DNA of 64,000 nucleotides, taken from NCBI GenBank assembly GCA_000002445.1, contig CM000207.1, positions 512,001 to 576,000 on the forward strand, written 5' to 3'. Source of the stretch: Trypanosoma brucei. Lineage: Eukaryota. The translations under genes were made by a program, and so were the position numbers. Shown here piece after piece: positions 11,917 to 44,180 of this stretch. Position 1 is the stretch's first letter. The number at the start of each line of letters is the position of its first letter. The notes beneath the pieces were generated by a model that searched no databases, was not told the origin of the DNA, and saw only the letters and a list, made by a program, of their open reading frames with translations.

Positions 11917-12535
11917 TTACCTCAATACTCGCGTATGGTTTACTCCACGTTGACACGCGTGGTCACTACCCTCGCAGCCACGTGACGCGCACGAGGAGTT
12001 TTAACAATAAAAACTTGATAACTCTCTCCTCTGCTACTTACACTCTCAAGTAAAAAATTAACACAAACTACTTCCTACCTATTACAGTCAGTGATATGCT
12101 TAAAAAGATTAATACCTTTATTCTCTTTTCCTCTTGTCCTCAGGTTTACAGGAAAATACGAAAGGAATCAATCAATCAATCAACATATAAAGAGGATCAG
12201 CATCAACACGCATGCAACAACATGATCATCCACGAAAAAACATCACCAAAATCACGAGCAGCCGCAGCTACAATACACACACACAAACACACAGATGCGC
12301 AAAAACGTACACCGATACCACCTTTCTATATATGTCATAAAACAAGCAGCAACAAAAAAGCAACAGAAAAGAAACAAACGCACACAAACACACAGAAATT
12401 TAAAAATGTTAAAAAACAAATCCACATAAAAAAAAGCAACAATATATATGCAAAACAGCACAATCAGCACCAACGTACAGAAGCAATATAAAATATACAA
12501 ACAACAAAAGCTACACACAAAAAGTCAATAAAGCA
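10210..12535 (-). repeat. segmental tandem duplication, copy 2 (gene B plus flank); flank copy abuts the 3' end of the giant ORF
   Basis: See copy 1. The flank copy ends at about 12535, where the 600-bp repeat array sequence begins. The giant ORF's TGA (12525-12527) lies inside the flank-derived sequence. Confidence 0.9.
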
Positions 12536-24500: not shown

Positions 24501-27500
24501 TACCGATGACTCCCGTGGTCTAGATTCATACAGCATCCACACAGCAGTGTATGGACATTCATTAAGACGCTCATCAATATCATCCTTCTTTAGGTTGTGT
24601 GGTGGGGTTATGGTAAATTCAAGTTTTAGCATTTCCTCGCTGTAACTCACCACCAAGTCCTGCACCTGTTCCTCATTAAGTTGCAACTGAGCAGCCGTTT
24701 CTTTGGTAAAGGCACTTACGACATCAGGTTTCCTCTTCTCCAAAACATAATCCCAGTCCTCACCCTCAAATTCCACGTGGTGTTGCGTAACCGTTTCTGT
24801 TGCAGAAGATGAATCCTTCATCATAGCCGCACGTGCAGCGGAAGCACGTGGCACATATAGTGACCACATCTCAGAGAAGGGACATGCAGCAAGGGTACTT
24901 AATATATCAGCATCATTTAATGAGCACCCAATGACTTTATAATCAATCAACAGACTTCCGAGTCGGCAATCAATGATAACCACCTGCTGTGGAGAGACAC
25001 CGAGAACACGCGCAGCGTCATTACGGAATGCGTTCTCCAACCCTTCACGATCACCACTAAGCACAAGATCCCAGTCATCTCCCTCAAATTTTTCTGTCAA
25101 TACCGATGACTCCCGTGGTCTAGATTCATACAGCATCCACACAGCAGTGTATGGACATTCATTAAGACGCTCATCAACATCATCCTTCTTTAGGTTGTGT
25201 GGTAGGGTTATGGTAAATTCAAGTTTTAGCATTTCCTCGCTGTAACTCACCACCAAGTCCTGCACCTGTTCCTCATTAAGTTGCAACTGAGCAGCCGTTT
25301 CTTTGGTAAAGGCACTTACAACATCAGGTTTCCTCTTCTCCAAAACATAATCCCAGTCCTCACCCTCAAATTCCATGTGGTGTTGCGTAACCGTTCCTGT
25401 TGCAGAAGATGAATCCTTCATCATAGCCGCACGTGCAGCGGAAGCACGTGGCACATATAGTGACCACATCTCAGAGAAGGGACATGCAGCAAGGGTACTT
25501 AATATATCAGCATCATTTAATGAGCTCCCAATGACTTTATAATCAATCAACAGACTTCCGAGTCGGCAATCAATGATAACCACCTGCTGTGGAGAGACAC
25601 CGAGAACACGCGCAGCGTCATTACGGAATGCGTTCTCCAACCCTTCACGATCACCACTAAGCACAAGATCCCAGTCATCTCCCTCAAATTTCTCTGTCAA
25701 TACCGATGACTCCCGTGGTCTAGATTCATACAGCATCCACACAGCAGTGTATGGACATTCATTAAGACGCTCATCAATATCATCCTTCTTTAGGTTGTGT
25801 GGTAGGGTTATGGTAAATTCAAGTTTTAGCATTTCCTCGCTGTAACTCACCACCAAGTCCTGCACCTGTTCCTCATTAAGTTGCAACTGAGCAGCCGTTT
25901 CTTTGGTAAAGGCACTTACGACATCAGGTTTCCTCTTCTCCAAAACATAATCCCAGTCCTCACCCTCAAATTCCACGTGGTGTTGCGTAACCGTTTCTGT
26001 TGCAGAAGATGAATCCTCCATCATAGCCGCACGTGCAGCGGAAGCACGTGGCACATATAGTGACCACATCTCAGAGAAGGGGCATGCAGCAAGGGTACTT
26101 AATATATCAGCATCATTTAATGAGCACCCAATGACTTTATAATCAATCAACAGACTTCCGAGTCGGCAATCAATGATAACCACCTGCTGTGGAGAGACAC
26201 CGAGAACACGCGCAGCGTCATTACGGAATGCGTTCTCCAACCCTTCACGATCACCACTAAGCACAAGATCCCAATCATCTCCCTCAAATTTCTCTGTCAA
26301 TACCGATGACTCCCGTGGTCTAGGTTCATACAGCATCCACACAGCAGTGTATGGACATTCGTGGAGACGCTCATCAATATCATCCTTCTTTAGGTTGTGT
26401 GGTGGGGTTATGGTAAATTCAAGTTTTAGCATTTCCTCGCTGTAACTCACCACCAAGTCCTGCACCTGTTCCTCATTAAGTTGCAACTGAGCAGCCGTTT
26501 CTTTGGTAAAGGCACTTACGACATCAGGTTTCCTCTTCTCCAAAACATAATCCCAGTCCTCACCCTCAAATTCCACGTGGTGTTGCGTAACCGTTTCTGT
26601 TGCAGAAGATGAATCCTCCATCATAGCCGCACGTGCAGCGGAAGCACGTGGCACATATAGTGACCACATCTCAGAGAAGGGACATGCAGCAAGGTTACTT
26701 AATATATCAGCATCATTTAATGAGCACCCAATGACTTTATAATCAATCAACAGACTTCCGAGTCGGCAATCAATGATAACCACCTGCTGTGGAGAGACAC
26801 CGAGAACACGCGCAGCGTCATTACGGAATGCGTTCTCCAACCCTTCACGATCACCACTAAGCACAAGATCCCAATCATCTCCCTCAAATTTTTCTGTCAG
26901 TACCGATGACTCCCGTGGTCTAGATTCATACAGCATCCACACAGCAGTGTATGGACATTCATTAAGACGCTCATCAACATCATCCTTCTTTAGGTTGTGT
27001 GGTAGGGTTATGGTAAATTCAAGTTTTAGCATTTCCTCGCTGTAACTCACCACCAAGTCCTGCACCTGTTCCTCATTAAGTTGCAACTGAGCAGCCGTTT
27101 CTTTGGTAAAGGCACTTACGACATCAGGTTTCCTCTTCTCCAAAACATAATCCCAGTCCTCACCCTCAAATTCCACGTGGTGTTGCGTAACCGTTTCTGT
27201 TGCAGAAGATGAATCCTCCATCATAGCCGCACGTGCAGCGGAAGCACGTGGCACATATAGTGACCACACTTCAGAGAAGGGACATGCAGCAAGGGTACTT
27301 AATATATCAGCATCATTTAATGAGCACCCAATGACTTTATAATCAATCAACAGACTTCCGAGTCGGCAATCAATGATAACCACCTGCTGTGGAGAGACAC
27401 CGAGAGCACGCGCAGCGTCATTACGGAATGCGTTCTCCAACCCTTCACGATCACCACTAAGCACAAGATCCCAGTCATCTCCCTCAAATTTCTCTGTCAA

Positions 27501-30500
27501 TACCGATGACTCCCGTGGTCTAGATTCATACAGCATCCACACAGCAGTGTATGGACATTCATTAAGACGCTCATCAATATCATCCTTCTTTAGGTTGTGT
27601 GGTGGGGTTATGGTAAATTCAAGTTTTAGCATTTCCTCGCTGTAACTCACCACCAAGTCCTGCACCTGTTCCTCATTAAGTTGCAACTGAGCAGCCGTTT
27701 CTTTGGTAAAGGCACTTACGACATCAGGTTTCCTCTTCTCCAAAACATAATCCCAGTCCTCACCCTCAAATTCCACGTGGTGTTGCGTAACCGTTTCTGT
27801 TGCAGAAGATGAATCCTTCATCATAGCCGCACGTGCAGCGGAAGCACGTGGCACATATAGTGACCACATCTCAGAGAAGGGACATGCAGCAAGGGTACTT
27901 AATATATCAGCATCATTTAATGAGCACCCAATGACTTTATAATCAATCAACAGACTTCCGAGTCGGCAATCAATGATAACCACCTGCTGTGGAGAGACAC
28001 CGAGAGCACACGCAGCGTCATTACGGAATGCGTTCTCCAACCCTTCACGATCACCACTAAGCACAAGATCCCAATCATCTCCCTCAAATTTCTCTGTCAA
28101 TACCGATGACTCCCGTGGTCTAGATTCATACAGCATCCACACAGCAGTGTATGGACATTCATTAAGACGCTCATCAATATCATCCTTCTTTAGGTTGTGT
28201 GGTAGGGTTATGGTAAATTCAAGTTTTAGCATTTCCTCGCTGTAACTCACCACCAAGTCCTGCACCTGTTCCTCATTAAGTTGCAACTGAGCAGCCGTTT
28301 CTTTGGTAAAGGCACTTACGACATCAGGTTTCCTCTTCTCCAAAACATAATCCCAGTCCTCACCCTCAAATTCCATGTGGTGTTGCGTAACCGTTTCTGT
28401 TGCAGAAGATGAATCCTCCATCATAGCCGCACGTGCAGCGGAAGCACGTGGCACATATAGTGACCACACCTCAGAGAAGGGACATGCAGCAAGGGTACTT
28501 AATATATCAGCATCATTTAATGAGCACCCAATGACTTTATAATCAATCAACAGACTTCCGAGTCGGCAATCAATGATAACCACCTGCTGTGGAGAGACAC
28601 CGAGAACACGCGCAGCGTCATTACGGAATGCGTTCTCCAACCCTTCACGATCACCACTAAGCACAAGATCCCAATCATCTCCCTCAAATTTTTCTGTCAG
28701 TACCGATGACTCCCGTGGTCTAGATTCATACAGCATCCACACAGCAGTGTATGGACATTCATTAAGACGCTCATCAATATCATCCTTCTTTAGGTTGTGT
28801 GGTAGGGTTATGGTAAATTCAAGTTTTAGCATTTCCTCGCTGTAACTCACCACCAAGTCCTGCACCTGTTCCTCATTAAGTTGCAACTGAGCAGCCGTTT
28901 CTTTGGTAAAGGCACTTACGACATCAGGTTTCCTCTTCTCCAAAACATAATCCCAGTCCTCACCCTCAAATTCCACGTGGTGTTGCGTAACCGTTTCTGT
29001 TGCAGAAGATGAATCCTTCATCATAGCCGCACGTGCAGCGGAAGCACGTGGCACATATAGTGACCACACTTCAGAGAAGGGACATGCAGCAAGGGTACTT
29101 AATATATCAGCATCATTTAATGAGCACCCAATGACTTTATAATCAATCAACAGACTTCCGAGTCGGCAATCAATGATAACCACCTGCTGTGGAGAGACAC
29201 CGAGAGCACGCGCAGCGTCATTACGGAATGCGTTCTCCAACCCTTCACGATCACCACTAAGCACAAGATCCCAGTCATCTCCCTCAAATTTCTCTGTCAA
29301 TACCGATGACTCCCGTGGTCTAGATTCATACAGCATCCACACAGCAGTGTATGGACATTCATTAAGACGCTCATCAATATCATCCTTCTTTAGGTTGTGT
29401 GGTAGGGTTATGGTAAATTCAAGTTTTAGCATTTCCTCGCTGTAACTCACCACCAAGTCCTGCACCTGTTCCTCATTAAGTTGCAACTGAGCAGCCGTTT
29501 CTTTGGTAAAGGCACTTACGACATCAGGTTTCCTCTTCTCCAAAACATAATCCCAGTCCTCACCCTCAAATTCCACGTGGTGTTGCGTAACCGTTTCTGT
29601 TGCAGAAGATGAATCCTCCATCATAGCCGCACGTGCAGCGGAAGCACGTGGCACATATAGTGACCACATCTCAGAGAAGGGACATGCAGCAAGGGTACTT
29701 AATATATCAGCATCATTTAATGAGCACCCAATGACTTTATAATCAATCAACAGACTTCCGAGTCGGCAATCAATGATAACCACCTGCTGTGGAGAGACAC
29801 CGAGAGCACGCGCAGCGTCATTACGGAATGCGTTCTCCAACCCTTCACGATCACCACTAAGCACAAGATCCCAATCATCTCCCTCAAATTTTTCTGTCAA
29901 TACCGATGACTCCCGTGGTCTAGATTCATACAGCATCCACACAGCAGTGTATGGACATTCATTAAGACGCTCATCAACATCATCCTTCTTTAGGTTGTGT
30001 GGTAGGGTTATGGTAAATTCAAGTTTTAGCATTTCCTCGCTGTAACTCACCACCAAGTCCTGCACCTGTTCCTCATTAAGTTGCAACTGAGCAGCCGTTT
30101 CTTTGGTAAAGGCACTTACGACATCAGGTTTCCTCTTCTCCAAAACATAATCCCAGTCCTCACCCTCAAATTCCACGTGGTGTTGCGTAACCGTTTCTGT
30201 TGCAGAAGATGAATCCTCCATCATAGCCGCACGTGCAGCGGAAGCACGTGGCACATATAGTGACCACACTTCAGAGAAGGGACATGCAGCAAGGGTACTT
30301 AATATATCAGCATCATTTAATGAGCACCCAATGACTTTATAATCAATCAACAGACTTCCGAGTCGGCAATCAATGATAACCACCTGCTGTGGAGAGACAC
30401 CGAGAACACGCGCAGCGTCATTACGGAATGCGTTCTCCAACCCTTCACGATCACCACTAAGCACAAGATCCCAGTCATCTCCCTCAAATTTTTCTGTCAA

Positions 30501-33500
30501 TACCGATGACTCCCGTGGTCTAGATTCATACAGCATCCACACAGCAGTGTATGGACATTCATTAAGACGCTCATCAATATCATCCTTCTTTAGGTTGTGT
30601 GGTGGGGTTATGGTAAATTCAAGTTTTAGCATTTCCTCGCTGTAACTCACCACCAAGTCCTGCACCTGTTCCTCATTAAGTTGCAACTGAGCAGCCGTTT
30701 CTTTGGTAAAGGCACTTACGACATCAGGTTTCCTCTTCTCCAAAACATAATCCCAGTCCTCACCCTCAAATTCCACGTGGTGTTGCGTAACCGTTCCTGT
30801 TGCAGAAGATGAATCCTTCATCATAGCCGCACGTGCAGCGGAAGCACGTGGCACATATAGTGACCACATCTCAGAGAAGGGACATGCAGCAAGGGTACTT
30901 AATATATCAGCATCATTTAATGAGCACCCAATGACTTTATAATCAATCAACAGACTTCCGAGTCGGCAATCAATGATAACCACCTGCTGTGGAGAGACAC
31001 CGAGAACACGCGCAGCGTCATTACGGAATGCGTTCTCCAACCCTTCACGATCACCACTAAGCACAAGATCCCAGTCATCTCCCTCAAATTTTTCTGTCAA
31101 TACCGATGACTCCCGTGGTCTAGATTCATACAGCATCCACACAGCAGTGTATGGACATTCATTAAGACGCTCATCAACATCATCCTTCTTTAGGTTGTGT
31201 GGTGGGGTTATGGTAAATTCAAGTTTTAGCATTTCCTCGCTGTAACTCACCACCAAGTCCTGCACCTGTTCCTCATTAAGTTGCAACTGAGCAGCCGTTT
31301 CTTTGGTAAAGGCACTTACGACATCAGGTTTCCTCTTCTCCAAAACATAATCCCAGTCCTCACCCTCAAATTCCACGTGGTGTTGCGTAACCGTTTCTGT
31401 TGCAGAAGATGAATCCTTCATCATAGCCGCACGTGCAGCGGAAGCACGTGGCACATATAGTGACCACATCTCAGAGAAGGGGCATGCAGCAAGGGTACTT
31501 AATATATCAGCATCATTTAATGAGCACCCAATGACTTTATAATCAATCAACAGACTTCCGAGTCGGCAATCAATGATAACCACCTGCTGTGGAGAGACAC
31601 CGAGAACACGCGCAGCGTCATTACGGAATGCGTTCTCCAACCCTTCACGATCACCACTAAGCACAAGATCCCAATCATCTCCCTCAAATTTTTCTGTCAA
31701 TACCGATGACTCCCGTGGTCTAGATTCATACAGCATCCACACAGCAGTGTATGGACATTCATTAAGACGCTCATCAATATCATCCTTCTTTAGGTTGTGT
31801 GGTGGGGTTATGGTAAATTCAAGTTTTAGCATTTCCTCGCTGTAACTCACCACCAAGTCCTGCACCTGTTCCTCATTAAGTTGCAACTGAGCAGCCGTTT
31901 CTTTGGTAAAGGCACTTACGACATCAGGTTTCCTCTTCTCCAAAACATAATCCCAGTCCTCACCCTCAAATTCCATGTGGTGTTGCGTAACCGTTCCTGT
32001 TGCAGAAGATGAATCCTTCATCATAGCCGCACGTGCAGCGGAAGCACGTGGCACATATAGTGACCACATCTCAGAGAAGGGACATGCAGCAAGGGTACTT
32101 AATATATCAGCATCATTTAATGAGCTCCCAATGACTTTATAATCAATCAACAGACTTCCGAGTCGGCAATCAATGATAACCACCTGCTGTGGAGAGACAC
32201 CGAGAACACGCGCAGCGTCATTACGGAATGCGTTCTCCAACCCTTCACGATCACCACTAAGCACAAGATCCCAATCATCTCCCTCAAATTTTTCTGTCAA
32301 TACCGATGACTCCCGTGGTCTAGATTCATACAGCATCCACACAGCAGTGTATGGACATTCATTAAGACGCTCATCAATATCATCCTTCTTTAGGTTGTGT
32401 GGTAGGGTTATGGTAAATTCAAGTTTTAGCATTTCCTCGCTGTAACTCACCACCAAGTCCTGCACCTGTTCCTCATTAAGTTGCAACTGAGCAGCCGTTT
32501 CTTTGGTAAAGGCACTTACGACATCAGGTTTCCTCTTCTCCAAAACATAATCCCAGTCCTCACCCTCAAATTCCACGTGGTGTTGCGTAACCGTTTCTGT
32601 TGCAGAAGATGAATCCTTCATCATAGCCGCACGTGCAGCGGAAGCACGTGGCACATATAGTGACCACACCTCAGAGAAGGGACATGCAGCAAGGGTACTT
32701 AATATATCAGCATCATTTAATGAGCACCCAATGACTTTATAATCAATCAACAGACTTCCGAGTCGGCAATCAATGATAACCACCTGCTGTGGAGAGACAC
32801 CGAGAACACGCGCAGCGTCATTACGGAATGCGTTCTCCAACCCTTCACGATCACCACTAAGCACAAGATCCCAGTCATCTCCCTCAAATTTTTCTGTCAA
32901 TACCGATGACTCCCGTGGTCTAGATTCATACAGCATCCACACAGCAGTGTATGGACATTCATTAAGACGCTCATCAATATCATCCTTCTTTAGGTTGTGT
33001 GGTGGGGTTATGGTAAATTCAAGTTTTAGCATTTCCTCGCTGTAACTCACCACCAAGTCCTGCACCTGTTCCTCATTAAGTTGCAACTGAGCAGCCGTTT
33101 CTTTGGTAAAGGCACTTACGACATCAGGTTTCCTCTTCTCCAAAACATAATCCCAGTCCTCACCCTCAAATTCCACGTGGTGTTGCGTAACCGTTTCTGT
33201 TGCAGAAGATGAATCCTTCATCATAGCCGCACGTGCAGCGGAAGCACGTGGCACATATAGTGACCACACCTCAGAGAAGGGACATGCAGCAAGGGTACTT
33301 AATATATCAGCATCATTTAATGAGCACCCAATGACTTTATAATCAATCAACAGACTTCCGAGTCGGCAATCAATGATAACCACCTGCTGTGGAGAGACAC
33401 CGAGAACACGCGCAGCGTCATTACGGAATGCGTTCTCCAACCCTTCACGATCACCACTAAGCACAAGATCCCAATCATCTCCCTCAAATTTCTCTGTCAA

Positions 33501-36500
33501 TACCGATGACTCCCGTGGTCTAGATTCATACAGCATCCACACAGCAGTGTATGGACATTCATTAAGACGCTCATCAACATCATCCTTCTTTAGGTTGTGT
33601 GGTAGGGTTATGGTAAATTCAAGTTTTAGCATTTCCTCGCTGTAACTCACCACCAAGTCCTGCACCTGTTCCTCATTAAGTTGCAACTGAGCAGCCGTTT
33701 CTTTGGTAAAGGCACTTACGACATCAGGTTTCCTCTTCTCCAAAACATAATCCCAGTCCTCACCCTCAAATTCCACGTGGTGTTGCGTAACCGTTTCTGT
33801 TGCAGAAGATGAATCCTCCATCATAGCCGCACGTGCAGCGGAAGCACGTGGCACATATAGTGACCACACTTCAGAGAAGGGACATGCAGCAAGGGTACTT
33901 AATATATCAGCATCATTTAATGAGCACCCAATGACTTTATAATCAATCAACAGACTTCCGAGTCGGCAATCAATGATAACCACCTGCTGTGGAGAGACAC
34001 CGAGAGCACGCGCAGCGTCATTACGGAATGCGTTCTCCAACCCTTCACGATCACCACTAAGCACAAGATCCCAATCATCTCCCTCAAATTTCTCTGTCAA
34101 TACCGATGACTCCCGTGGTCTAGATTCATACAGCATCCACACAGCAGTGTATGGACATTCATTAAGACGCTCATCAACATCATCCTTCTTTAGGTTGTGT
34201 GGTAGGGTTATGGTAAATTCAAGTTTTAGCATTTCCTCGCTGTAACTCACCACCAAGTCCTGCACCTGTTCCTCATTAAGTTGCAACTGAGCAGCCGTTT
34301 CTTTGGTAAAGGCACTTACGACATCAGGTTTCCTCTTCTCCAAAACATAATCCCAGTCCTCACCCTCAAATTCCACGTGGTGTTGCGTAACCGTTTCTGT
34401 AGCAGAAGATGAATCCTCCATCATAGCCGCACGTGCAGCGGAAGCACGTGGCACATATAGTGACCACACTTCAGAGAAGGGACATGCAGCAAGGGTACTT
34501 AATATATCAGCATCATTTAATGAGCACCCAATGACTTTATAATCAATCAACAGACTTCCGAGTCGGCAATCAATGATAACCACCTGCTGTGGAGAGACAC
34601 CGAGAGCACACGCAGCGTCATTACGGAATGCGTTCTCCAACCCTTCACGATCACCACTAAGCACAAGATCCCAGTCATCTCCCTCAAATTTTTCTGTCAG
34701 TACCGATGACTCCCGTGGTCTAGATTCATACAGCATCCACACAGCAGTGTATGGACATTCATTAAGACGCTCATCAATATCATCCTTCTTTAGGTTGTGT
34801 GGTGGGGTTATGGTAAATTCAAGTTTTAGCATTCCCTCGCTGTAACTCACGACCAAGTCCTGCACCTGTTCCTCATTAAGTTGCAACTGAGCAGCCGTTT
34901 CTTCGATAAAGGCATTCACGACTTCATTTTTTTTGTTGTGAATCGAAGTGTACCATTCTTTTCCTGCGAAATGTTTGGTGTGTTTTTTACTTTCTAATAT
35001 TAATTTGTTGTAATTTACTGGGTTTTTTTCGTTATAGAAGTTCCAAAGCCGTGGGTATTGGTGCTGAAGTATTTGGTGTTTTATTCTCTCCGGTGACTTT
35101 TTATTGTCGTATACGCTGTATTCGACTTGTAGATTGTGATCAGTTGCGTGCATGTTAGTGACAACGATTTTTTCGGTTTTCACTTCCAGTGCTGTTGATG
35201 TTTCGTGCAAAAATATGTCGTGTATTTTTTCTTTATCGTGGAGCATTTTGTATTTCCATTCTGTACCCATGAAGCTTCTCTTGTATTTAATTTTTTTGTA
35301 CGCGGTATATTTTTTGTAAATGGCGGTCGTTTGTGGGTATTCGTAGCTGTGTATGTTGTTGCCAGAATCATTGCTTTTCTTTATTCCCTTGCTCACAACA
35401 TATTCGACGTGAAGTCTGCTTGTTGCTAATATTTTTGTTACATATACATCGGCCGTACTGGCTAACCAGTGAAGATTGTAAATATCTGTTTCTGCTGCTT
35501 TTTTCACTTCATACTTGTGGTCATCAGCAATAGTTTTCCAGTCGTCACCTCTCAACGTGAAATTATGCAGTGACATATTTTTGCATTCTTCTTCATATAG
35601 TCTTCTGAGCAATGGGTAGTTGTATTCTGCGACTGCAGCCCTCAAGTCGTTTTGTGTCATAGAGTTGTCATGCTGTAATTCCGCCTGAATTATCAAGCAG
35701 TTTTGTTCCTCGTTGTAAGAAGAATGAGTGACTATTACATTACTTTTGGGCACACCCACCGCTGTTCCTGTCTCGACACAAAATGTGTGCTCAATGTCAG
35801 CTTGCCTAAAGTAGAGGATAACCTCCCAATCTTTCCCTGCGTATTCACGGCGCACCACACCGATAGTACCAGAAGGGATATTATCTACGGAGTGCGTTGT
35901 GGGTATAAATATCCCCTCGCTAATGTCCATCTCTTCTTGTTCTGATTTCCCCCGTCTACTGTTCGCTAACCGCTGCATCATAACGGTATCAAGATATCTA
36001 ATACAGGGTTCCTCGAGAGAGTACAGGTTATCCCCCCCTAGCAGTTCTTGTGAACCAAGTACCACGAGCACATTCTTTCGCAAAACGATGATGCTATAGT
36101 TTGTTGGCACCCACGTGTAGAAGGCAGGTAGCAGATATTCTTTGTTCTCCGCCCCGGCAAAACTCTGCCGGTACCTCTCTAGCGCTAAGTCTTTCGGGGC
36201 CGAGTGTTCTTCTGCCCTTGCGGGCTGCATCGAATCCCCCTCTTGCGTCTCCGTCTCTTCACCACCCCCAAATCCCATCTGCCTGTAAGCACGCAATTCC
36301 TCATTAACCTTGTCCAGTTGGGTTTGATACATCCCCATAGAGTACTGCTGCTTCTGAATGTCATTCATAACGTCAGCCAATACGCGCTTTTGTTCTTCCA
36401 TAATATCCTCTGCAGTAACCTTCTCCTTCACTGCATGGCATATGTCTAATTGAGCGAGCGTCCAGTAGTATATGGGTCCCATTGCCCTGCTGCCGTCTAC

Positions 36501-37169
36501 AGCCCGATCGTAGCAGAAGCTACGCCTACTCACGCAATCCCGCAAAATGAAATTACATCTCTCAATAGACAGTTCTTCGTCTGCAGAGAATTCTAGAATG
36601 CGCGCGCGAAAGTGCTGATGGCGTAACACACTCTGCATTTGTGGCCACGTTTTGGCTCCATCCTCACTCAGTAACAACATCACCGCGCGGAGGATAGTTG
36701 TTACCATCTTGGGTGGTGAACGATACGACTTCAGCTCATTCCAATGGTTGTACGAAATCGACTCAACATCGCAGCGGGCAGCAGACACTGCGGCGCGGGA
36801 CTGCATCAAGTGCGCCTCAGCTGCTGAACTAGTTCTCATCAATTCAGCTCGTGCGTTGCGAAGAGACTCGGTAAGCTCGGCCGCTCGCCGTAAGCACTGT
36901 TCAAACCCCTTCTTCGATTCTTCTACTTTACGCAGCATAGCGCCTCTCTCCCCAATGACGGTGGTGCCGCTGTTATCATCATCAACCAATTCCCACCTCC
37001 GCTCCCACAGCTGTATTTCAGCATCCTGGGCGTAAGGGGCTGACACTACCTGCCCCAGCGTCCAGTTGATTCCTCCACTATCGTCATTGGTCAGTACCAA
37101 CGCAACCACATCACCCGGTTTAATGGACCGAATGTCTGTACTGCACGTTAACGTTCTCTCTTGCATCAT
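12525..37169 (-). CDS. giant repetitive protein (8214 aa): N-terminal dynein-MTBD-like stalk domain followed by 37 tandem 200-aa repeats
   Basis: Uninterrupted 24,645-nt ORF. ATG-ATG at 37164-37169, preceded by an in-frame stop at 37215-37217. TGA stop at 12525-12527. The N-terminal ~760 aa are unique and include the MTBD-like region (aa ~143-253: WNELKSYRSPPKMVTTILRAVMLLLSEDGAKTWPQMQSVLRHQHFRARILEFSADEELS...AMGPIYYWTLAQL). The remainder is a 600-bp repeat array. Confidence 0.85.
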   Translation of the reverse strand: MMQERTLTCSTDIRSIKPGDVVALVLTNDDSGGINWTLGQVVSAPYAQDAEIQLWERRWELVDDDNSGTTVIGERGAMLRKVEESKKGFEQCLRRAAELTESLRNARAELMRTSSAAEAHLMQSRAAVSAARCDVESISYNHWNELKSYRSPPKMVTTILRAVMLLLSEDGAKTWPQMQSVLRHQHFRARILEFSADEELSIERCNFILRDCVSRRSFCYDRAVDGSRAMGPIYYWTLAQLDICHAVKEKVTAEDIMEEQKRVLADVMNDIQKQQYSMGMYQTQLDKVNEELRAYRQMGFGGGEETETQEGDSMQPARAEEHSAPKDLALERYRQSFAGAENKEYLLPAFYTWVPTNYSIIVLRKNVLVVLGSQELLGGDNLYSLEEPCIRYLDTVMMQRLANSRRGKSEQEEMDISEGIFIPTTHSVDNIPSGTIGVVRREYAGKDWEVILYFRQADIEHTFCVETGTAVGVPKSNVIVTHSSYNEEQNCLIIQAELQHDNSMTQNDLRAAVAEYNYPLLRRLYEEECKNMSLHNFTLRGDDWKTIADDHKYEVKKAAETDIYNLHWLASTADVYVTKILATSRLHVEYVVSKGIKKSNDSGNNIHSYEYPQTTAIYKKYTAYKKIKYKRSFMGTEWKYKMLHDKEKIHDIFLHETSTALEVKTEKIVVTNMHATDHNLQVEYSVYDNKKSPERIKHQILQHQYPRLWNFYNEKNPVNYNKLILESKKHTKHFAGKEWYTSIHNKKNEVVNAFIEETAAQLQLNEEQVQDLVVSYSEGMLKLEFTITPPHNLKKDDIDERLNECPYTAVWMLYESRPRESSVLTEKFEGDDWDLVLSGDREGLENAFRNDAACALGVSPQQVVIIDCRLGSLLIDYKVIGCSLNDADILSTLAACPFSEVWSLYVPRASAARAAMMEDSSSATETVTQHHVEFEGEDWDYVLEKRKPDVVSAFTKETAAQLQLNEEQVQDLVVSYSEEMLKLEFTITLPHNLKKDDVDERLNECPYTAVWMLYESRPRESSVLTEKFEGDDWDLVLSGDREGLENAFRNDAARALGVSPQQVVIIDCRLGSLLIDYKVIGCSLNDADILSTLAACPFSEVWSLYVPRASAARAAMMEDSSSATETVTQHHVEFEGEDWDYVLEKRKPDVVSAFTKETAAQLQLNEEQVQDLVVSYSEEMLKLEFTITLPHNLKKDDVDERLNECPYTAVWMLYESRPRESSVLTEKFEGDDWDLVLSGDREGLENAFRNDAARVLGVSPQQVVIIDCRLGSLLIDYKVIGCSLNDADILSTLAACPFSEVWSLYVPRASAARAAMMKDSSSATETVTQHHVEFEGEDWDYVLEKRKPDVVSAFTKETAAQLQLNEEQVQDLVVSYSEEMLKLEFTITPPHNLKKDDIDERLNECPYTAVWMLYESRPRESSVLTEKFEGDDWDLVLSGDREGLENAFRNDAARVLGVSPQQVVIIDCRLGSLLIDYKVIGCSLNDADILSTLAACPFSEVWSLYVPRASAARAAMMKDSSSATETVTQHHVEFEGEDWDYVLEKRKPDVVSAFTKETAAQLQLNEEQVQDLVVSYSEEMLKLEFTITLPHNLKKDDIDERLNECPYTAVWMLYESRPRESSVLTEKFEGDDWDLVLSGDREGLENAFRNDAARVLGVSPQQVVIIDCRLGSLLIDYKVIGSSLNDADILSTLAACPFSEMWSLYVPRASAARAAMMKDSSSATGTVTQHHMEFEGEDWDYVLEKRKPDVVSAFTKETAAQLQLNEEQVQDLVVSYSEEMLKLEFTITPPHNLKKDDIDERLNECPYTAVWMLYESRPRESSVLTEKFEGDDWDLVLSGDREGLENAFRNDAARVLGVSPQQVVIIDCRLGSLLIDYKVIGCSLNDADILSTLAACPFSEMWSLYVPRASAARAAMMKDSSSATETVTQHHVEFEGEDWDYVLEKRKPDVVSAFTKETAAQLQLNEEQVQDLVVSYSEEMLKLEFTITPPHNLKKDDVDERLNECPYTAVWMLYESRPRESSVLTEKFEGDDWDLVLSGDREGLENAFRNDAARVLGVSPQQVVIIDCRLGSLLIDYKVIGCSLNDADILSTLAACPFSEMWSLYVPRASAARAAMMKDSSSATGTVTQHHVEFEGEDWDYVLEKRKPDVVSAFTKETAAQLQLNEEQVQDLVVSYSEEMLKLEFTITPPHNLKKDDIDERLNECPYTAVWMLYESRPRESSVLTEKFEGDDWDLVLSGDREGLENAFRNDAARVLGVSPQQVVIIDCRLGSLLIDYKVIGCSLNDADILSTLAACPFSEVWSLYVPRASAARAAMMEDSSSATETVTQHHVEFEGEDWDYVLEKRKPDVVSAFTKETAAQLQLNEEQVQDLVVSYSEEMLKLEFTITLPHNLKKDDVDERLNECPYTAVWMLYESRPRESSVLTEKFEGDDWDLVLSGDREGLENAFRNDAARALGVSPQQVVIIDCRLGSLLIDYKVIGCSLNDADILSTLAACPFSEMWSLYVPRASAARAAMMEDSSSATETVTQHHVEFEGEDWDYVLEKRKPDVVSAFTKETAAQLQLNEEQVQDLVVSYSEEMLKLEFTITLPHNLKKDDIDERLNECPYTAVWMLYESRPRESSVLTEKFEGDDWDLVLSGDREGLENAFRNDAARALGVSPQQVVIIDCRLGSLLIDYKVIGCSLNDADILSTLAACPFSEVWSLYVPRASAARAAMMKDSSSATETVTQHHVEFEGEDWDYVLEKRKPDVVSAFTKETAAQLQLNEEQVQDLVVSYSEEMLKLEFTITLPHNLKKDDIDERLNECPYTAVWMLYESRPRESSVLTEKFEGDDWDLVLSGDREGLENAFRNDAARVLGVSPQQVVIIDCRLGSLLIDYKVIGCSLNDADILSTLAACPFSEVWSLYVPRASAARAAMMEDSSSATETVTQHHMEFEGEDWDYVLEKRKPDVVSAFTKETAAQLQLNEEQVQDLVVSYSEEMLKLEFTITLPHNLKKDDIDERLNECPYTAVWMLYESRPRESSVLTEKFEGDDWDLVLSGDREGLENAFRNDAACALGVSPQQVVIIDCRLGSLLIDYKVIGCSLNDADILSTLAACPFSEMWSLYVPRASAARAAMMKDSSSATETVTQHHVEFEGEDWDYVLEKRKPDVVSAFTKETAAQLQLNEEQVQDLVVSYSEEMLKLEFTITPPHNLKKDDIDERLNECPYTAVWMLYESRPRESSVLTEKFEGDDWDLVLSGDREGLENAFRNDAARALGVSPQQVVIIDCRLGSLLIDYKVIGCSLNDADILSTLAACPFSEVWSLYVPRASAARAAMMEDSSSATETVTQHHVEFEGEDWDYVLEKRKPDVVSAFTKETAAQLQLNEEQVQDLVVSYSEEMLKLEFTITLPHNLKKDDVDERLNECPYTAVWMLYESRPRESSVLTEKFEGDDWDLVLSGDREGLENAFRNDAARVLGVSPQQVVIIDCRLGSLLIDYKVIGCSLNDADILSNLAACPFSEMWSLYVPRASAARAAMMEDSSSATETVTQHHVEFEGEDWDYVLEKRKPDVVSAFTKETAAQLQLNEEQVQDLVVSYSEEMLKLEFTITPPHNLKKDDIDERLHECPYTAVWMLYEPRPRESSVLTEKFEGDDWDLVLSGDREGLENAFRNDAARVLGVSPQQVVIIDCRLGSLLIDYKVIGCSLNDADILSTLAACPFSEMWSLYVPRASAARAAMMEDSSSATETVTQHHVEFEGEDWDYVLEKRKPDVVSAFTKETAAQLQLNEEQVQDLVVSYSEEMLKLEFTITLPHNLKKDDIDERLNECPYTAVWMLYESRPRESSVLTEKFEGDDWDLVLSGDREGLENAFRNDAARVLGVSPQQVVIIDCRLGSLLIDYKVIGSSLNDADILSTLAACPFSEMWSLYVPRASAARAAMMKDSSSATGTVTQHHMEFEGEDWDYVLEKRKPDVVSAFTKETAAQLQLNEEQVQDLVVSYSEEMLKLEFTITLPHNLKKDDVDERLNECPYTAVWMLYESRPRESSVLTEKFEGDDWDLVLSGDREGLENAFRNDAARVLGVSPQQVVIIDCRLGSLLIDYKVIGCSLNDADILSTLAACPFSEMWSLYVPRASAARAAMMKDSSSATETVTQHHVEFEGEDWDYVLEKRKPDVVSAFTKETAAQLQLNEEQVQDLVVSYSEEMLKLEFTITPPHNLKKDDIDERLNECPYTAVWMLYESRPRESSVLTEKFEGDDWDLVLSGDREGLENAFRNDAARVLGVSPQQVVIIDCRLGSLLIDYKVIGCSLNDADILSTLAACPFSEVWSLYVPRASAARAAMMKDSSSATETVTQHHVEFEGEDWDYVLEKRKPDVVSAFTKETAAQLQLNEEQVQDLVVSYSEEMLKLEFTITPPHNLKKDDIDERLNECPYTAVWMLYESRPRESSVLTEKFEGDDWDLVLSGDREGLENAFRNDAARVLGVSPQQVVIIDCRLGSLLIDYKVIGCSLNDADILSTLAACPFSEMWSLYVPRASAARAAMMKDSSSATETVTQHHVEFEGEDWDYVLEKRKPDVVSAFTKETAAQLQLNEEQVQDLVVSYSEEMLKLEFTITLPHNLKKDDIDERLNECPYTAVWMLYESRPRESSVLTEKFEGDDWDLVLSGDREGLENAFRNDAARVLGVSPQQVVIIDCRLGSLLIDYKVIGCSLNDSDILSTLAACPFSEMWSLYVPRASAARAAMMKDSSSATETVTQHHVEFEGEDWDYVLEKRKPDVVSAFTKETAAQLQLNEEQVQDLVVSYSEEMLKLEFTITPPHNLKKDDIDERLNECPYTAVWMLYESRPRESSVLTEKFEGDDWDLVLSGDREGLENAFRNDAARVLGVSPQQVVIIDCRLGSLLIDYKVIGCSLNDADILSTLAACPFSEVWSLYVPRASAARAAMMKDSSSATETVTQHHVEFEGEDWDYVLEKRKPDVVSAFTKETAAQLQLNEEQVQDLVVSYSEEMLKLEFTITPPHNLKKDDIDERLNECPYTAVWMLYESRPRESSVLTEKFEGDDWDLVLSGDREGLENAFRNDAARVLGVSPQQVVIIDCRLGSLLIDYKVIGRSLNDSDILSTLAACPFSEMWSLYVPRASAARAAMMKDSSSATGTVTKHYVGFEGEDWDYVLEKRKPDVVSAFTKETAAQLHLNEEQVQDLVLSYSEEMLKLEFTITPPHNLKKDDIDERLNECPYTAVWMLYESRPRESSVLTEKFEGDDWDLVLSGDREGLENAFRNDAARVLGVSPQQVVIIDCRLGSLLIDYKVIGCSLNDADILSTLAACPFSEMWSLYVPRASAARAAMMKDSSSATETVTQHHVEFEGEDWDYVLEKRKPDVVSAFTKETAAQLQLNEEQVQDLVVSYSEEMLKLEFTITPPHNLKKDDIDERLHECPYTAVWMLYEPRPRESSVLTEKFEGDDWDLVLSGDREGLENAFRNDAARVLGVSPQQVVIIDCRLGSLLIDYKVIGSSLNDADILSTLAACPFSEVWSLYVPRASAARAAMMEDSSSATETVTQHHVEFEGEDWDYVLEKRKPDVVSAFTKETAAQLQLNEEQVQDLVVSYSEEMLKLEFTITLPHNLKKDDIDERLNECPYTAVWMLYESRPRESSVLTEKFEGDDWDLVLSGDREGLENAFRNDAARVLGVSPQQVVIIDCRLGSLLIDYKVIGCSLNDADILSTLAACPFSEVWSLYVPRASAARAAMMKDSSSATETVTQHHVEFEGEDWDYVLEKRKPDVVSAFTKETAAQLQLNEEQVQDLVVSYSEEMLKLEFTITLPHNLKKDDVDERLNECPYTAVWMLYESRPRESSVLTEKFEGDDWDLVLSGDREGLENAFRNDAARALGVSPQQVVIIDCRLGSLLIDYKVIGCSLNDADILSTLAACPFSEVWSLYVPRASAARAAMMKDSSSATETVTQHHVEFEGEDWDYVLEKRKPDVVSAFTKETAAQLQLNEEQVQDLVVSYSEEMLKLEFTITLPHNLKKDDVDERLNECPYTAVWMLYESRPRESSVLTEKFEGDDWDLVLSGDREGLENAFRNDAARALGVSPQQVVIIDCRLGSLLIDYKVIGCSLNDADILSNLAACPFSEVWSLYVPRASAARAAMMEDSSSATETVTQHHVEFEGEDWDYVLEKRKPDVVSAFTKETAAQLQLNEEQVQDLVVSYSEEMLKLEFTITPPHNLKKDDIDERLHECPYTAVWMLYEPRPRESSVLTEKFEGDDWDLVLSGDREGLENAFRNDAARVLGVSPQQVVIIDCRLGSLLIDYKVTGCSLNDADILSTLAACPFSEVWSLYVPRASAARAAMMEDSSSATETVTQHHVEFEGEDWDYVLEKRKPDVVSAFTKETAAQLQLNEEQVQDLVVSYSEEMLKLEFTITLPHNLKKDDVDERLNECPYTAVWMLYESRPRESSVLTEKFEGDDWDLVLSGDREGLENAFRNDAACALGVSPQQVVIIDCRLGSLLIDYKVIGCSLNDADILSTLAACPFSEVWSLYVPRASAARAAMMEDSSSATETVTQHHVEFEGEDWDYVLEKRKPDVVSAFTKETAAQLQLNEEQVQDLVVSYSEEMLKLEFTITLPHNLKKDDIDERLNECPYTAVWMLYESRPRESSVLTEKFEGDDWDLVLSGDREGLENAFRNDAARALGVSPQQVVIIDCRLGSLLIDYKVIGCSLNDADILSTLAACPFSEMWSLYVPRASAARAAMMEDSSSATETVTQHHVEFEGEDWDYVLEKRKPDVVSAFTKETAAQLQLNEEQVQDLVVSYSEEMLKLEFTITLPHNLQKDDIDERLHECPYTAVWMLYEPRPRESSVLTEKFEGDDWDLVLSGDREGLENAFRNDAACALGVSPQQVVIIDCRLGSLLIDYKVIGCSLNDADILSTLAACPFSEVWSLYVPRASAARAAMMEDSSSATETVTQHHVEFEGEDWDYVLEKRKPDVVSAFTKETAAQLQLNEEQVQDLVVSYSEEMLKLEFTITLPHNLKKDDVDERLNECPYTAVWMLYESRPRESSVLTEKFEGDDWDLVLSGDREGLENAFRNDAARVLGVSPQQVVIIDCRLGSLLIDYKVIGCSLNDADILSTLAACPFSEVWSLYVPRASAARAAMMKDSSSATETVTQHHVEFEGEDWDYVLEKRKPDVVSAFTKETAAQLQLNEEQVQDLVVSYSEEMLKLEFTITLPHNLKKDDIDERLNECPYTAVWMLYESRPRESSVLTEKFEGDDWDLVLSGDREGLENAFRNDAARVLGVSPQQVVIIDCRLGSLLIDYKVIGSSLNDADILSTLAACPFSEMWSLYVPRASAARAAMMEDSSSATETVTQHHVEFEGEDWDYVLEKRKPDVVSAFTKETAAQLQLNEEQVQDLVVSYSEEMLKLEFTITLPHNLKKDDIDERLNECPYTAVWMLYESRPRESSVLTEKFEGDDWDLVLSGDREGLENAFRNDAARVLGVSPQQVVIIDCRLGSLLIDYKVIGSSLNDADILSTLAACPFSEVWSLYVPRASAARAAMMEDSSSATETVTQHHVEFEGEDWDYVLEKRKPDVVSAFTKETAAQLQLNEEQVQDLVVSYSEEMLKLEFTITLPHNLKKDDIDERLNECPYTAVWMLYESRPRESSVLTEKFEGDDWDLVLSGDREGLENAFRNDAARVLGVSPQQVVIIDCRLGSLLIDYKVIGSSLNDADILSTLAACPFSEMWSLYVPRASAARAAMMKDSSSATETVTQHHVEFEGEDWDYVLEKRKPDVVSAFTKETAAQLQLNEEQVQDLVVSYSEEMLKLEFTITLPHNLKKDDIDERLNECPYTAVWMLYESRPRESSVLTEKFEGDDWDLVLSGDREGLENAFRNDAARVLGVSPQQVVIIDCRLGSLLIDYKVIGCSLNDADILSTLAACPFSEVWSLYVPRASAARAAMMKDSSSATETVTKHYVGFEGEDWDYVLEKRKPDVVSAFTKETAAQLHLNEEQVQDLVLSYSEEMLKLEFTITPPHNLKKDDIDERLNECPYTAVWMLYELRPRESSVLTEKFEGDDWDLVLSGDREGLENAFRNDAARVLGVSPQQAVIIDCRLGSLLIDYKVIGCSLNDADILSTLAACPFSEMWSLYVPRASAARAAMMKDSSSATGTVTKHYVGFEGEDWDYVLEKRKPDVVSAFTKETAAQLHLNEEQVQDLVVSYSEEMLKLEFTITPPHNLKKDDIDESLHECPYTAVWMLY
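12529..34895 (-). repeat. tandem array of 37 x 600-bp coding repeats (>95% identical), internal to the giant ORF
   Basis: Exact 600-bp periodicity. It is visible as identical antisense 90-aa ORFs at 12973+600k, k=0..36. Each unit encodes two ~100-aa modules (FEGEDWDYVLEKRKPDVVSAFTKE... and FEGDDWDLVLSGDREGLENAFRND...). Variation is limited to a few biallelic sites shuffled among units. Confidence 0.95.
34896..35700 (-). repeat. degenerate A/T-rich ancestral copies of the ~100-aa module preceding the homogenised array
   Basis: The protein shows F.G.EW/F.GDDW modules (FAGKEWYTSIHNKKNEVVNAF..., FMGTEWKYKMLHDKEKIHDIF..., TLRGDDWKTIADDHKYEV...). At nt level they share little identity with the array, and the sequence is T-rich on the + strand. 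Confidence 0.6.
36270..36917 (-). other. dynein heavy chain stalk/MTBD-like domain (CC1-MTBD-CC2) within the giant ORF
   Basis: By-eye alignment to the canonical dynein MTBD ([55 protein letters not shown]...ACGPMVKWAIAQL) gives near-colinear matches. Helix-rich coiled-coil flanks lie on both sides. Confidence 0.6.
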
Positions 37170-38268: not shown

Positions 38269-38281
38269 GTGTGTATTGTAT

Positions 38282-38316
<35 letters not shown>
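38269..38316. repeat. (TG)n microsatellite
   Basis: gtgtgtattgtatgtgtatg(tg)15 by direct reading. Confidence 0.95.
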
Positions 38317-38317
<1 letters not shown>

Positions 38318-40254: not shown

Positions 40255-40265
40255 CCCCCCCCCCC
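40255..40265. repeat. poly(C)11 homopolymer
   Basis: Direct reading. Confidence 0.9.
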
Positions 40266-43914: not shown

Positions 43915-44180
43915 GTTGGTGTTTGGGAAAGAACTCGTTTGAGTGTGTGCGTTGCCGTCCACTCTTCCCCTTCGTCGCTTATTATTGTTATTGCTGTTTC
44001 CTGTTTGTTTGCTTTGTTTTTGCACCTCTCTCTATCGTCGCTACTATCGTCTTGCTTGCTAATATATGTATGGATGTATGAGTCTATCGTTTTTCTTCTT
44101 CCTTCGCTCTACCTTATTTCCCTACGTTTCGTCCCGATTGGCTACGTTTGCTGCTTCAATTCACAGAGTTAAGCAAACTT

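What the first reader, a model, noticed from the sequence alone, without database searches (positions are those of the whole stretch)
36270..36917. Stand-alone dynein heavy-chain stalk/MTBD-like domain at the N-terminus of the giant protein
Residues ~143-253 align almost colinearly by eye to the dynein MTBD and adjacent stalk:
- ELKSYRSPPKMVTTILRAVMLLLSEDGAKTWPQMQSVLRHQHFRARILEFSADEELS versus dynein [55 protein letters not shown].
- ...SRAMGPIYYWTLAQL versus ASLACGPMVKWAIAQL.
The domain is flanked by predicted coiled coils, as with CC1 and CC2 of the dynein stalk. No AAA+ modules are present. An MTBD detached from the motor and fused to a repeat rod would be an unusual domain shuffle. It suggests direct microtubule-lattice binding.
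Basis: partly seen in the sequence, partly recalled or inferred. Interest (0 to 1): 0.85.

Follow-up and report, generated by a model that had tools for sequence, protein, structure and literature searches.

The report
Motor-less dynein microtubule-binding domain in GB4
The giant repetitive trypanosome protein GB4, long known to sit on the cell's cortical microtubules, starts with a genuine copy of the small domain that dynein motors use to grip microtubules but has no motor, which probably explains how it attaches.

Summary

The protein is not anonymous. It is Trypanosoma brucei GB4, with the published ORF length of exactly 24,645 nt and 37 repeats of 600 nt. GB4 is a microtubule-associated protein of the posterior end of the subpellicular corset, first described in 1993.

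The MTBD is the best-conserved block among GB4 orthologues. It is also the only basic segment in a protein of net charge -711. It is therefore the most likely microtubule anchor, although this is not proven. Three basic residues reported as cytoplasmic-dynein microtubule contacts are replaced.

The same module (beta domain, short stalk, MTBD, second small domain) heads a whole kinetoplastid family, including two paralogues in this window. Some members are already auto-annotated 'dynein heavy chain, cytosolic, putative'. I found no paper that describes the domain in GB4. I rate it a new variant of a known kind, of moderate to high interest.

The parts
12525..37169 (-). GB4 open reading frame: 24,645 nt including the stop, 8214 aa, 928 kDa, net charge -711.
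   Evidence: The length and the repeat structure equal those published for Tb427tmp.160.1200 (GB4) in PMC5397161.
36990..37136 (-). N-terminal small beta domain, residues 12-60, with three strands at 20-27, 35-43 and 49-58. It lies at the base of the stalk.
   Evidence: AF2 model, pLDDT 80-88. The motif (V)GD.VA....W.LG.V is shared with all family members. Mean identity among orthologues is 35%.
36762..36953 (-). CC1-like helix, residues 73-136, the outgoing strand of a short stalk.
   Evidence: A single helix at 73-136 with pLDDT of about 90 or more over most of it. It aligns to dynein CC1.
36483..36761 (-). Globular dynein-type microtubule-binding domain, residues 137-229. Helices lie at 140-147, 154-166, 175-182, 187-193, 196-199, 202-213 and 220-226.
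36267..36482 (-). CC2-like helix, residues 230-301, the returning strand of the stalk. The dynein hinge proline P3409 is absent (T252).
36189..36266 (-). Acidic, poorly conserved linker, residues 302-327, predicted disordered.
   Evidence: pLDDT is about 50. Identity among orthologues is 5%. Net charge is -6.
35958..36188 (-). Post-stalk domain, residues 328-404: short helices, a beta hairpin at 352-363/367-373 and a helix at 387-404. The motif YLLPAFYTW.PT....VLR is conserved in the family as W......(V/I)LRSSIL.
   Evidence: (45% identity).
34971..35852 (-). Diverged FAZ1_cons (PF23398) domains, residues about 440-733.
12528..34970 (-). 37 near-identical 200-aa (600-nt) super-repeats plus an 81-aa tail. 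Each super-repeat holds two FAZ1_cons alpha/beta domains (94 + 106 aa) and has net charge -18.
   Evidence: The AF2 model of one unit has pLDDT 92.6. It has no solved structural relative.
10177..11916 (-). Paralogue 1, 579 aa: the same N-terminal module with a degenerate MTBD, plus one FAZ1_cons domain.
6901..9183 (-). Paralogue 2, 760 aa. It is 94% identical to paralogue 1 over 572 aa, then diverges.

Best explanation
The ORF is Trypanosoma brucei GB4. Its first ~400 residues form a motor-less copy of the tip of a dynein heavy chain. A short antiparallel coiled-coil stalk (CC1 73-136, CC2 230-301) carries a helical MTBD (137-229). The base of the stalk is closed by a small N-terminal beta domain and a post-stalk beta-hairpin domain, in place of the AAA4/AAA5 modules of dynein.

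Shown here: homology and fold of the stalk/MTBD, absence of a motor, strong purifying selection on the MTBD, and membership of a kinetoplastid family that shares the module.

Inferred:
- The MTBD is the part of GB4 that contacts the tubulin lattice of the subpellicular microtubules. With no ATPase to shift the stalk registry, it would act as a static, non-cycling anchor.
- The ~7800-residue, very acidic array of about 80 FAZ1_cons domains projects away from the microtubule as a rod or spacer.
- The module was probably captured once from a cytoplasmic-dynein-like heavy chain in an ancestor of kinetoplastids. It was then fused to different C-terminal parts.
For: Identity as GB4:
- The ORF is 24,645 nt, with 37 repeats of 600 nt after a unique 5' part, exactly as published.
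- Orthologues are named 'microtubule-associated protein Gb4'.

Homology and fold:
- phmmer against the PDB gives E=1.6e-13.
- The AF2 model has mean pLDDT 83 and pTM 0.74, with block means of 94-98 over the MTBD.
- All of the top 50 Foldseek hits are dyneins, with TM 0.79 to the microtubule-bound mouse MTBD 6rzb_C.

Constraint:
- The MTBD block is 65% identical on average across 10 orthologues. The other domains are 27-45% identical and the linkers 5-9%.
- Fold residues E3304, PP3311/12, W3333, R3341, F3345, S3384, GP3388/9, W3393 and Q3397 are all kept.

Electrostatics:
- The MTBD has pI 9.0 and net charge +3, identical to the mouse MTBD.
- CC1 and the MTBD are the only clearly basic segments. 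Each 200-aa repeat has net charge -18 and the whole protein -711.

Biology from papers:
- GB4 marks the posterior end, where the microtubule plus ends lie.
- The L. mexicana orthologue decorates peripheral microtubules.
- The function of the repeats is unknown.

Family:
- The module heads proteins that carry C2, PH plus EEP-phosphatase, FAZ1_cons or long coiled-coil C-terminal parts.
- A crude NJ tree gives a nearly exclusive clade.
Against: - Basic residues that the papers read here list as proposed or key cytoplasmic-dynein microtubule contacts are not kept. K3298 is S139 and K3299 is Y140. R3382 is D225 in GB4 and mostly Q in the orthologues. K3334, which is R or K in 20 of 23 dyneins aligned here, is P176.
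- The stalk hinge proline P3409 is missing.
- Pfam PF12777 scores just under its cut-off.
- A lattice-binding MTBD does not by itself explain why GB4 concentrates at the posterior end.
- No binding experiment with the N-terminus was found.
- FAZ1_cons (formerly PFAMB506) domains are common to many cytoskeleton-bound trypanosome proteins, so they could provide the attachment instead.
- The model gives no coordinates, so the position of GB4's own conserved basic residues relative to the tubulin-facing side could not be checked.
Confidence: 0.6

Rival explanations
1. The fold is a true MTBD relic but no longer binds tubulin. GB4 would be held on the cytoskeleton by its FAZ1_cons array, or by partner proteins. 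The N-terminal module would bind something else, or serve only as a folded-back coiled-coil spacer or oligomerisation element.
For: - Contact residues K3298, K3299 and R3382 are replaced, and the hinge proline is lost.
- FAZ1_cons/PFAMB506 occurs in nine T. brucei proteins. Eight of them were known to be cytoskeleton-associated and the ninth was then localised to the FAZ, so cytoskeletal association tracks with FAZ1_cons in that set; whether those proteins also have an MTBD was not tested here.
- The two window paralogues have a clearly degenerate MTBD, without S3384 or G-P, yet keep FAZ1_cons.
Against: - The MTBD is the most conserved block of GB4 orthologues, so it is under selection for some function.
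- It keeps the net charge and pI of a working MTBD, while the repeats are strongly acidic, like the microtubule surface.
- Axonemal dyneins also diverge at the H1 positions and still bind microtubules (alignment).
- GB4 orthologues have invariant basic residues of their own on H1, H3 and H6: K147, R183 and R222.
Confidence: 0.27
2. The MTBD is not a plain lattice binder. It would recognise a special tubulin state found at the posterior end, such as newly polymerised, tyrosinated or plus-end lattice, or the gap between neighbouring microtubules. The substituted contact residues would then reflect a changed specificity.
For: - GB4 is used as a posterior, plus-end marker. The 1993 paper describes it as capping microtubules at the posterior end (title cited).
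- Contact positions differ from dynein but are conserved within the GB4 orthologue group, for example R161 and R222.
Against: - The L. mexicana orthologue lies along peripheral microtubules with only a bias to the posterior.
- Nothing in the sequence identifies an end-recognition element.
- This reading is a refinement of the best explanation rather than an exclusive alternative.
Confidence: 0.1
3. The similarity is an artefact: a coiled-coil compositional match, a chimeric assembly, or a dynein pseudogene fragment fused to a repeat array.
Against: - The match covers the globular, non-coiled-coil helices, with invariant P-P, W, G-P and W.
- The same architecture is present in 10 orthologues from other trypanosomatids.
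- The ORF length equals an independently published and experimentally probed mRNA.
Confidence: 0.02

Closest known systems
Dynein heavy chain stalk and microtubule-binding domain (Pfam PF12777; PDB 3ERR, 5AYH, 6RZB)
   Same: - An antiparallel CC1/CC2 hairpin carries a small helical bundle with the same topology.
- The identity to mouse dynein-1 is 24% over about 230 aligned columns.
- The conserved core residues are kept.
- Net charge and pI are the same as in the mouse MTBD.
   Different: - There is no AAA+ ring, linker or tail.
- The stalk is about 60-70 residues per strand, visibly shorter than the complete dynein stalk of 5AYH (own knowledge: roughly 100 residues per strand in dynein).
- The base is closed by two small domains instead of AAA4/AAA5.
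- The hinge proline P3409 and the contact lysines and arginine (K3298, K3299, R3382) are not kept.
- Registry-controlled cycling of affinity is therefore not expected.
GB4 of Trypanosoma brucei (Rindisbacher, Hemphill and Seebeck 1993; Tb427tmp.160.1200)
   Same: It is this very gene. The ORF length, the 600-nt repeats and the unique 5' part all match.
   Different: The papers I could read describe only the repeats, the size and the posterior localisation. None mentions a dynein-type domain at the N-terminus.
Kinetoplastid proteins of about 600-900 aa annotated 'dynein heavy chain, cytosolic, putative' or 'Microtubule binding stalk of dynein motor' (e.g. T. cruzi XP_803265, T. vivax CCD18672, T. 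theileri XP_028880757)
   Same: They have the same N-terminal module: beta domain, CC1, MTBD, CC2 and the W...LRSSIL domain.
   Different: - They continue into ordinary coiled coils instead of a FAZ1_cons array.
- They share only about 31% identity with GB4 in the MTBD core.
- More of them keep K or R at the R3382 position (16 of 27).
FAZ1 and the other PFAMB506/FAZ1_cons proteins; 'alternative pull' model of Trepout 2020
   Same: They share the FAZ1_cons domain. Phyre2 was reported to match the N-terminus of FAZ1 to 'dynein motor' templates.
   Different: - GB4 is a separate gene from FAZ1.
- That paper proposed active dynein motor domains that pull the FAZ. Here no motor is present, only the stalk tip. 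The result argues for passive anchoring, not force generation.
MARP-1/MARP-2 repetitive microtubule-associated proteins of T. brucei
   Same: They are giant repetitive proteins of the subpellicular corset.
   Different: In MARPs the repeats themselves bind microtubules (statement in PMC8625193). GB4 repeats are strongly acidic, and the candidate binding site is a single N-terminal domain.

Membership tests
Dynein heavy chain (motor protein) | Ring of six AAA+ modules with linker and tail | tested here: not met
   Pfam finds only MT and FAZ1_cons in the parts scanned. Residues 734-8214 are fully occupied by 37 uniform 200-aa repeats. GB4 is therefore not a dynein.
Dynein stalk/MTBD domain (PF12777 and solved MTBD structures) | Significant sequence similarity to dynein MTBDs | tested here: met
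   phmmer against the PDB gives E=1.6e-13, with dozens of dynein chains matched. Dyneins also match at E of 1e-12 to 1e-7 among 1.84 billion proteins.
Dynein stalk/MTBD domain (PF12777 and solved MTBD structures) | Pfam gathering threshold for PF12777 (24 bits) | tested here: not met
   The score is 23.5 bits, E=3.4e-5, over residues 109-171 only. The T. congolense orthologue and several family members do carry the Pfam hit.
Dynein stalk/MTBD domain (PF12777 and solved MTBD structures) | Fold: helical bundle at the tip of an antiparallel coiled coil | tested here: met
Dynein stalk/MTBD domain (PF12777 and solved MTBD structures) | Conserved core residues (P-P after H1, two tryptophans, G-P before CC2, R3341, F3345, S3384, Q3397) | tested here: met
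   All are present in GB4: P152-P153, W175, W236, G231-P232, R183, F187, S227 and Q240.
Dynein stalk/MTBD domain (PF12777 and solved MTBD structures) | Tubulin-contact basic residues of cytoplasmic dynein (K3298, K3299, R3342 region, R3382) | tested here: not met
   S139, Y140 and D225 replace K3298, K3299 and R3382. Only the H3 arginine (R183) is kept (residue list from PMC4987762 and PMC6125590).
Dynein stalk/MTBD domain (PF12777 and solved MTBD structures) | Binding to microtubules | not testable with these tools
   This needs co-sedimentation, TIRF or cryo-EM. Only indirect support exists: GB4 is microtubule-associated in cells.
GB4 (T. brucei microtubule-associated repetitive protein) | Longest ORF of the genome: 24,645 nt, with 2256 nt unique 5' sequence followed by 37 repeats of 600 nt | tested here: met
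   The ORF 12525..37169 is 24,645 nt. It has a 200-aa period and 37 units plus a tail from residue 734.
FAZ1 (Tb927.4.3740) | 193-kDa FAZ filament protein, listed separately from GB4 among PFAMB506 proteins | tested here: not met
   The size is 928 kDa. GB4 and FAZ1 are listed as different genes. Only the FAZ1_cons domain is shared.
FAZ10 (Tb927.7.3330) | 52 repeats of 35 aa within coiled coils | tested here: not met
   The repeats here are 200 aa long and made of alpha/beta domains.

The most novel reading that the evidence does not exclude
Kinetoplastids may possess a whole family of motor-less 'dynein tips'. One module (beta domain, short stalk, MTBD, hairpin domain) would have been captured once from a cytoplasmic-dynein-like heavy chain. 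It would then have been reused as a general, polarity-reading anchor that fastens very different cargoes to the subpellicular and FAZ microtubules. Those cargoes include giant acidic rods (GB4), C2-domain proteins resembling CC2D, PH plus inositol-phosphatase-like enzymes, and membrane-anchored coiled coils.

A malawimonad protein with two tandem MTBDs hints that motor-less MTBDs are older and wider than kinetoplastids.
Probability: 0.4. Interest if true: 0.8.

Novelty: new variant of a known kind. Interest (0 to 1): 0.6.

Why it matters
In my own recollection, which I could not check with a literature search, the dynein MTBD is treated as a part peculiar to dynein motors. Here it appears as a free-standing anchor in a classical trypanosome microtubule-associated protein whose mode of attachment I did not find defined in any paper read here, some 30 years after its description.

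If the domain binds tubulin, three things follow:
- It gives a direct, testable mechanism for GB4.
- By extension, it gives one for a family of kinetoplastid cytoskeletal proteins, some of which are now mislabelled as dynein heavy chains.
- It offers a natural experiment on what an MTBD does when no ATPase controls its stalk registry.

It also corrects a published suggestion that FAZ-type proteins contain dynein motor domains that generate force. In GB4, only the stalk tip is present.

Tried and rejected
- First identification as FAZ1. This was suggested by the Pfam name FAZ1_cons. I rejected it because FAZ1 is 193 kDa and is listed apart from GB4.
- FAZ10. Rejected because it has 35-aa repeats.
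- The search for homologous proteins. Run with the 440-aa query and with a 4-sequence profile, it returned one protein each time. The exhaustive representative search was needed to see the family. The third search was left unused.
- Tandem Repeats Finder. The period was measured on the protein instead.
- afdb50 fold library. It was not available, so UniProt-level naming of structural neighbours was not possible.
- The look-up of encoding contigs. It found no record for two window proteins. The strain was therefore inferred only from the published ORF length and a T. equiperdum fragment identical to a paralogue N-terminus.
- High- versus low-affinity conformation. The TM and rmsd values to 6rzb, 6kio, 6kjn and 6kjo are too similar to decide.
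- Literature. No paper holds both FAZ1 and MTBD, links GB4 with a dynein domain, or uses 'MTBD-like' or PF12777 for trypanosome proteins.
- Fold of the repeat unit. It has no significant PDB relative.
Full report
**What is at the coordinates**

The window carries one enormous minus-strand ORF, 12525..37169, of 8214 aa. The finding's coordinates 36270-36917 are residues 85-300 of that ORF. All large ORFs of the window but one lie on the same strand, and that one overlaps a larger minus-strand ORF. GC skew is uniformly negative. This is the layout of a trypanosomatid polycistronic unit.

**Is the similarity real?**

Yes, by sequence.
- phmmer of residues 1-350 against all PDB sequences gives 5ayh_A and 3wuq_A (mouse cytoplasmic dynein-1 stalk) at E=1.6e-13. 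The alignment covers residues 79-273 with two one-residue gaps. Nearly all of the other hits listed are dynein heavy chains of every class.
- An exhaustive phmmer of residues 1-440 against 1.84 billion representative proteins finds 387 hits. Among them are full-length dyneins (about 4000 aa), matched precisely at their stalk tip, positions about 3000-3300.
- Pfam's PF12777 model alone is marginal: 23.5 bits against a cut-off of 24, over residues 109-171.

**Fold**

I built an AlphaFold2 model of residues 1-440 with a 27-sequence alignment of family members. It has mean pLDDT 83.3 and pTM 0.74, with 10-residue block means of 94-98 over the MTBD. Its elements are:
- three beta strands (20-58);
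- one long helix (73-136);
- seven short helices (140-226);
- one long helix (230-301);
- a disordered acidic linker;
- a further small domain with a beta hairpin (328-404).

Two fold comparisons agree.
- Foldseek against the PDB returns only dynein chains in the top 50. Isolated MTBDs superpose with TM 0.79 and 2.7 A (6rzb_C, mouse MTBD on microtubules), and TM 0.78 and 1.8 A (6kjo, yeast).

**No motor**

Pfam finds nothing but MT and FAZ1_cons in the parts scanned. From residue 734 to the end the protein is 37 copies of a 200-aa unit plus an 81-aa tail. The copies are at least 90% identical to their consensus, 98% on average.

**Which protein is it?**

The Pfam name first suggested FAZ1, and the size suggested FAZ10. 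Both are wrong. FAZ10 has 35-aa repeats. FAZ1 is a 193-kDa protein listed separately.

Orthologues found are named 'microtubule-associated protein Gb4'. Kramer (PMC5397161) describes the longest ORF of T. brucei Lister 427, Tb427tmp.160.1200 = GB4. It is 24,645 nt, with 2256 unique nucleotides followed by 37 repeats of 600 nt. The window ORF is exactly 24,645 nt with that structure.

[quoted passage not shown] Later work reports the following:
- It is used today as a marker of the posterior, plus-end region.
- Its L. mexicana orthologue decorates peripheral microtubules with a posterior bias.
- The function of its repeats is stated to be unknown.

**Constraint and chemistry**

I aligned GB4 with 10 orthologues, from T. 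congolense at 56% identity down to proteins at 36%. The MTBD block is the best-conserved part:

| Segment | Mean identity |
|---|---|
| MTBD block (141-245) | 65% |
| N-terminal domain | 35% |
| CC1 | 35% |
| CC2 | 27% |
| Post-stalk domain | 45% |
| Linkers | 5-9% |

The MTBD (pI 9.0, net +3) has the same charge as the mouse MTBD. It and CC1 are the only clearly basic segments. Each 200-aa repeat carries -18 and the whole 928-kDa protein -711. An acidic rod is unlikely to bind the acidic microtubule surface directly. The N-terminal domain is the natural candidate.

**Caveat on the interface**

I validated mouse numbering using E3289, K3298, K3299, R3342, E3378 and R3382 (residue lists). I then compared 23 dyneins, 11 GB4 orthologues and 27 other family members.
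- Fold-defining residues are all kept: E3304, P3311-P3312, W3333, R3341, F3345, S3384, G3388-P3389, W3393 and Q3397.
- The proposed H1 contact lysines K3298 and K3299 are S139 and Y140.
- The H6 arginine R3382 is D225 in GB4 and mostly Q in the orthologues.
- K3334 is P176.
- The stalk hinge proline P3409 is absent.
- GB4 orthologues have their own invariant basic residues (K147, R161, R183, R222).
- Axonemal dyneins also vary in H1.

Binding is therefore plausible, but a dynein-identical interface is not shown. Without model coordinates I could not map these residues on the tubulin-facing side.

**A family, not a one-off**

Hits of the second tier are proteins of 430-2000 aa. Each begins with the same module: a small beta domain, CC1, the MTBD, CC2, and a domain with the motif W......VLRSSIL. 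Their C-terminal parts differ:
- ordinary coiled coils;
- FAZ1_cons domains;
- a C2 domain;
- a PH-like domain plus an EEP-phosphatase domain.

Some members have been annotated since the T. cruzi genome as 'dynein heavy chain, cytosolic, putative'. One in T. vivax is annotated 'Microtubule binding stalk of dynein motor'.

Two tandem paralogues lie just downstream in this window (10177..11916 and 6901..9183). They are 94% identical to each other. Each carries the module, with a degenerate MTBD, plus one FAZ1_cons domain. In a crude neighbour-joining tree of MTBD cores, the stand-alone proteins form a nearly exclusive clade. This is consistent with one capture event, but it is weak evidence.

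**Prior knowledge**

Trepout 2020 reported Phyre2 matches of FAZ1, FAZ2 and FAZ10 to 'dynein stalk and motor'. That paper built a model in which these proteins pull on microtubules. I found no paper linking GB4 to a dynein domain, and none using 'MTBD' with FAZ1.

The feature is thus visible in automatic annotation but, as far as I could search, undescribed and uninterpreted. What is present is the stalk tip only. This argues against motor activity.

**Mechanism proposed**

GB4 would be fastened to the tubulin lattice by a single N-terminal, non-cycling dynein-type MTBD on a short stalk. The base of the stalk is closed by two small domains. The long acidic chain of about 80 FAZ1_cons alpha/beta domains would extend from the microtubule. 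The AF2 model of one repeat unit has pLDDT 92.6 and no solved relative.
- Shown: homology, fold, absence of a motor, selection on the domain, family membership, identity as GB4.
- Inferred: direct tubulin binding, static anchoring, single evolutionary capture.
- Unexplained: the posterior-end preference.

**Verdict**

The added findings are that the protein is the known GB4 and that the module is a kinetoplastid family trait. I rate it a new variant of a known kind, with interest 0.6.

Noticed in passing
window 10177-11916 (-) and 6901-9183 (-): Two tandem paralogues of 579 and 760 aa lie directly downstream of GB4. They are 94% identical over 572 aa, then diverge. Each has the GB4-type N-terminal module with a degenerate MTBD (no S3384 or G-P, and a 10-residue insertion before H6) and one FAZ1_cons domain. 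Their differences cluster in MTBD helix H1 (WRIIRNINNP against WRELRSAGRP). A T. equiperdum 134-aa fragment (P0002) is identical to their N-terminus apart from the positions where the two paralogues differ.
   Followed up: partly
window 12528-34970 (-), modelled unit 34371-34970: One 200-aa GB4 repeat folds confidently (pLDDT 92.6) into two similar alpha/beta domains, each strand, long helix, beta hairpin and two helices. The best Foldseek E-value against the PDB is 0.2, so FAZ1_cons appears to have no solved structural relative.
   Followed up: partly
P0016 (Gefionella okellyi, EukProt transcriptome), residues about 366-613 and 631-845: An 869-aa malawimonad protein has two tandem CC1-MTBD-CC2 units (Pfam MT 92 bits, two stretches). 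It has no AAA+ module and no kinetoplastid-type N-terminal domain. Motor-less MTBDs may therefore exist outside kinetoplastids, unless the transcript is a fragment or chimera.
   Followed up: partly
P0034, P0043, P0046; P0086, P0137 (public assemblies, taxa unknown): The same N-terminal MTBD module is fused to about 1500 residues of coiled coil plus a C-terminal C2 domain. That architecture recalls the FAZ protein CC2D. In other proteins it is fused to a PH-like domain plus an endonuclease/exonuclease/phosphatase domain. Whether T. brucei CC2D itself carries the module was not tested.
   Followed up: no
P0010 (EukProt, 4897 aa), residues 1986-2358: In one GB4 orthologue the module lies about 2000 residues from the annotated N-terminus, behind a low-complexity, partly frame-like sequence. 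This is probably a gene-model fusion rather than a real architecture.
   Followed up: no
window 37170-40785: A 3.6-kb gap without large ORFs lies upstream of GB4. GC drops to 0.35 at 38001-40000. Part of the gap would hold the long UTR (~1250 nt) that one search reports for the GB4 mRNA; its text lists 272 and 1250 nt in the order 3', 5'.
   Followed up: no
window 1726-63969, other ORFs: Neighbouring minus-strand genes encode the following:
- an SCO1/SenC protein (3916-5076);
- a DUF4457 protein (40786-44025);
- a TLC-domain protein (45908-46759);
- a HEAT/PBS-lyase repeat protein of 317 aa (47859-48812);
- a DUF4460/4461 protein (56680-58710).

None of them is related to the finding.
   Followed up: partly
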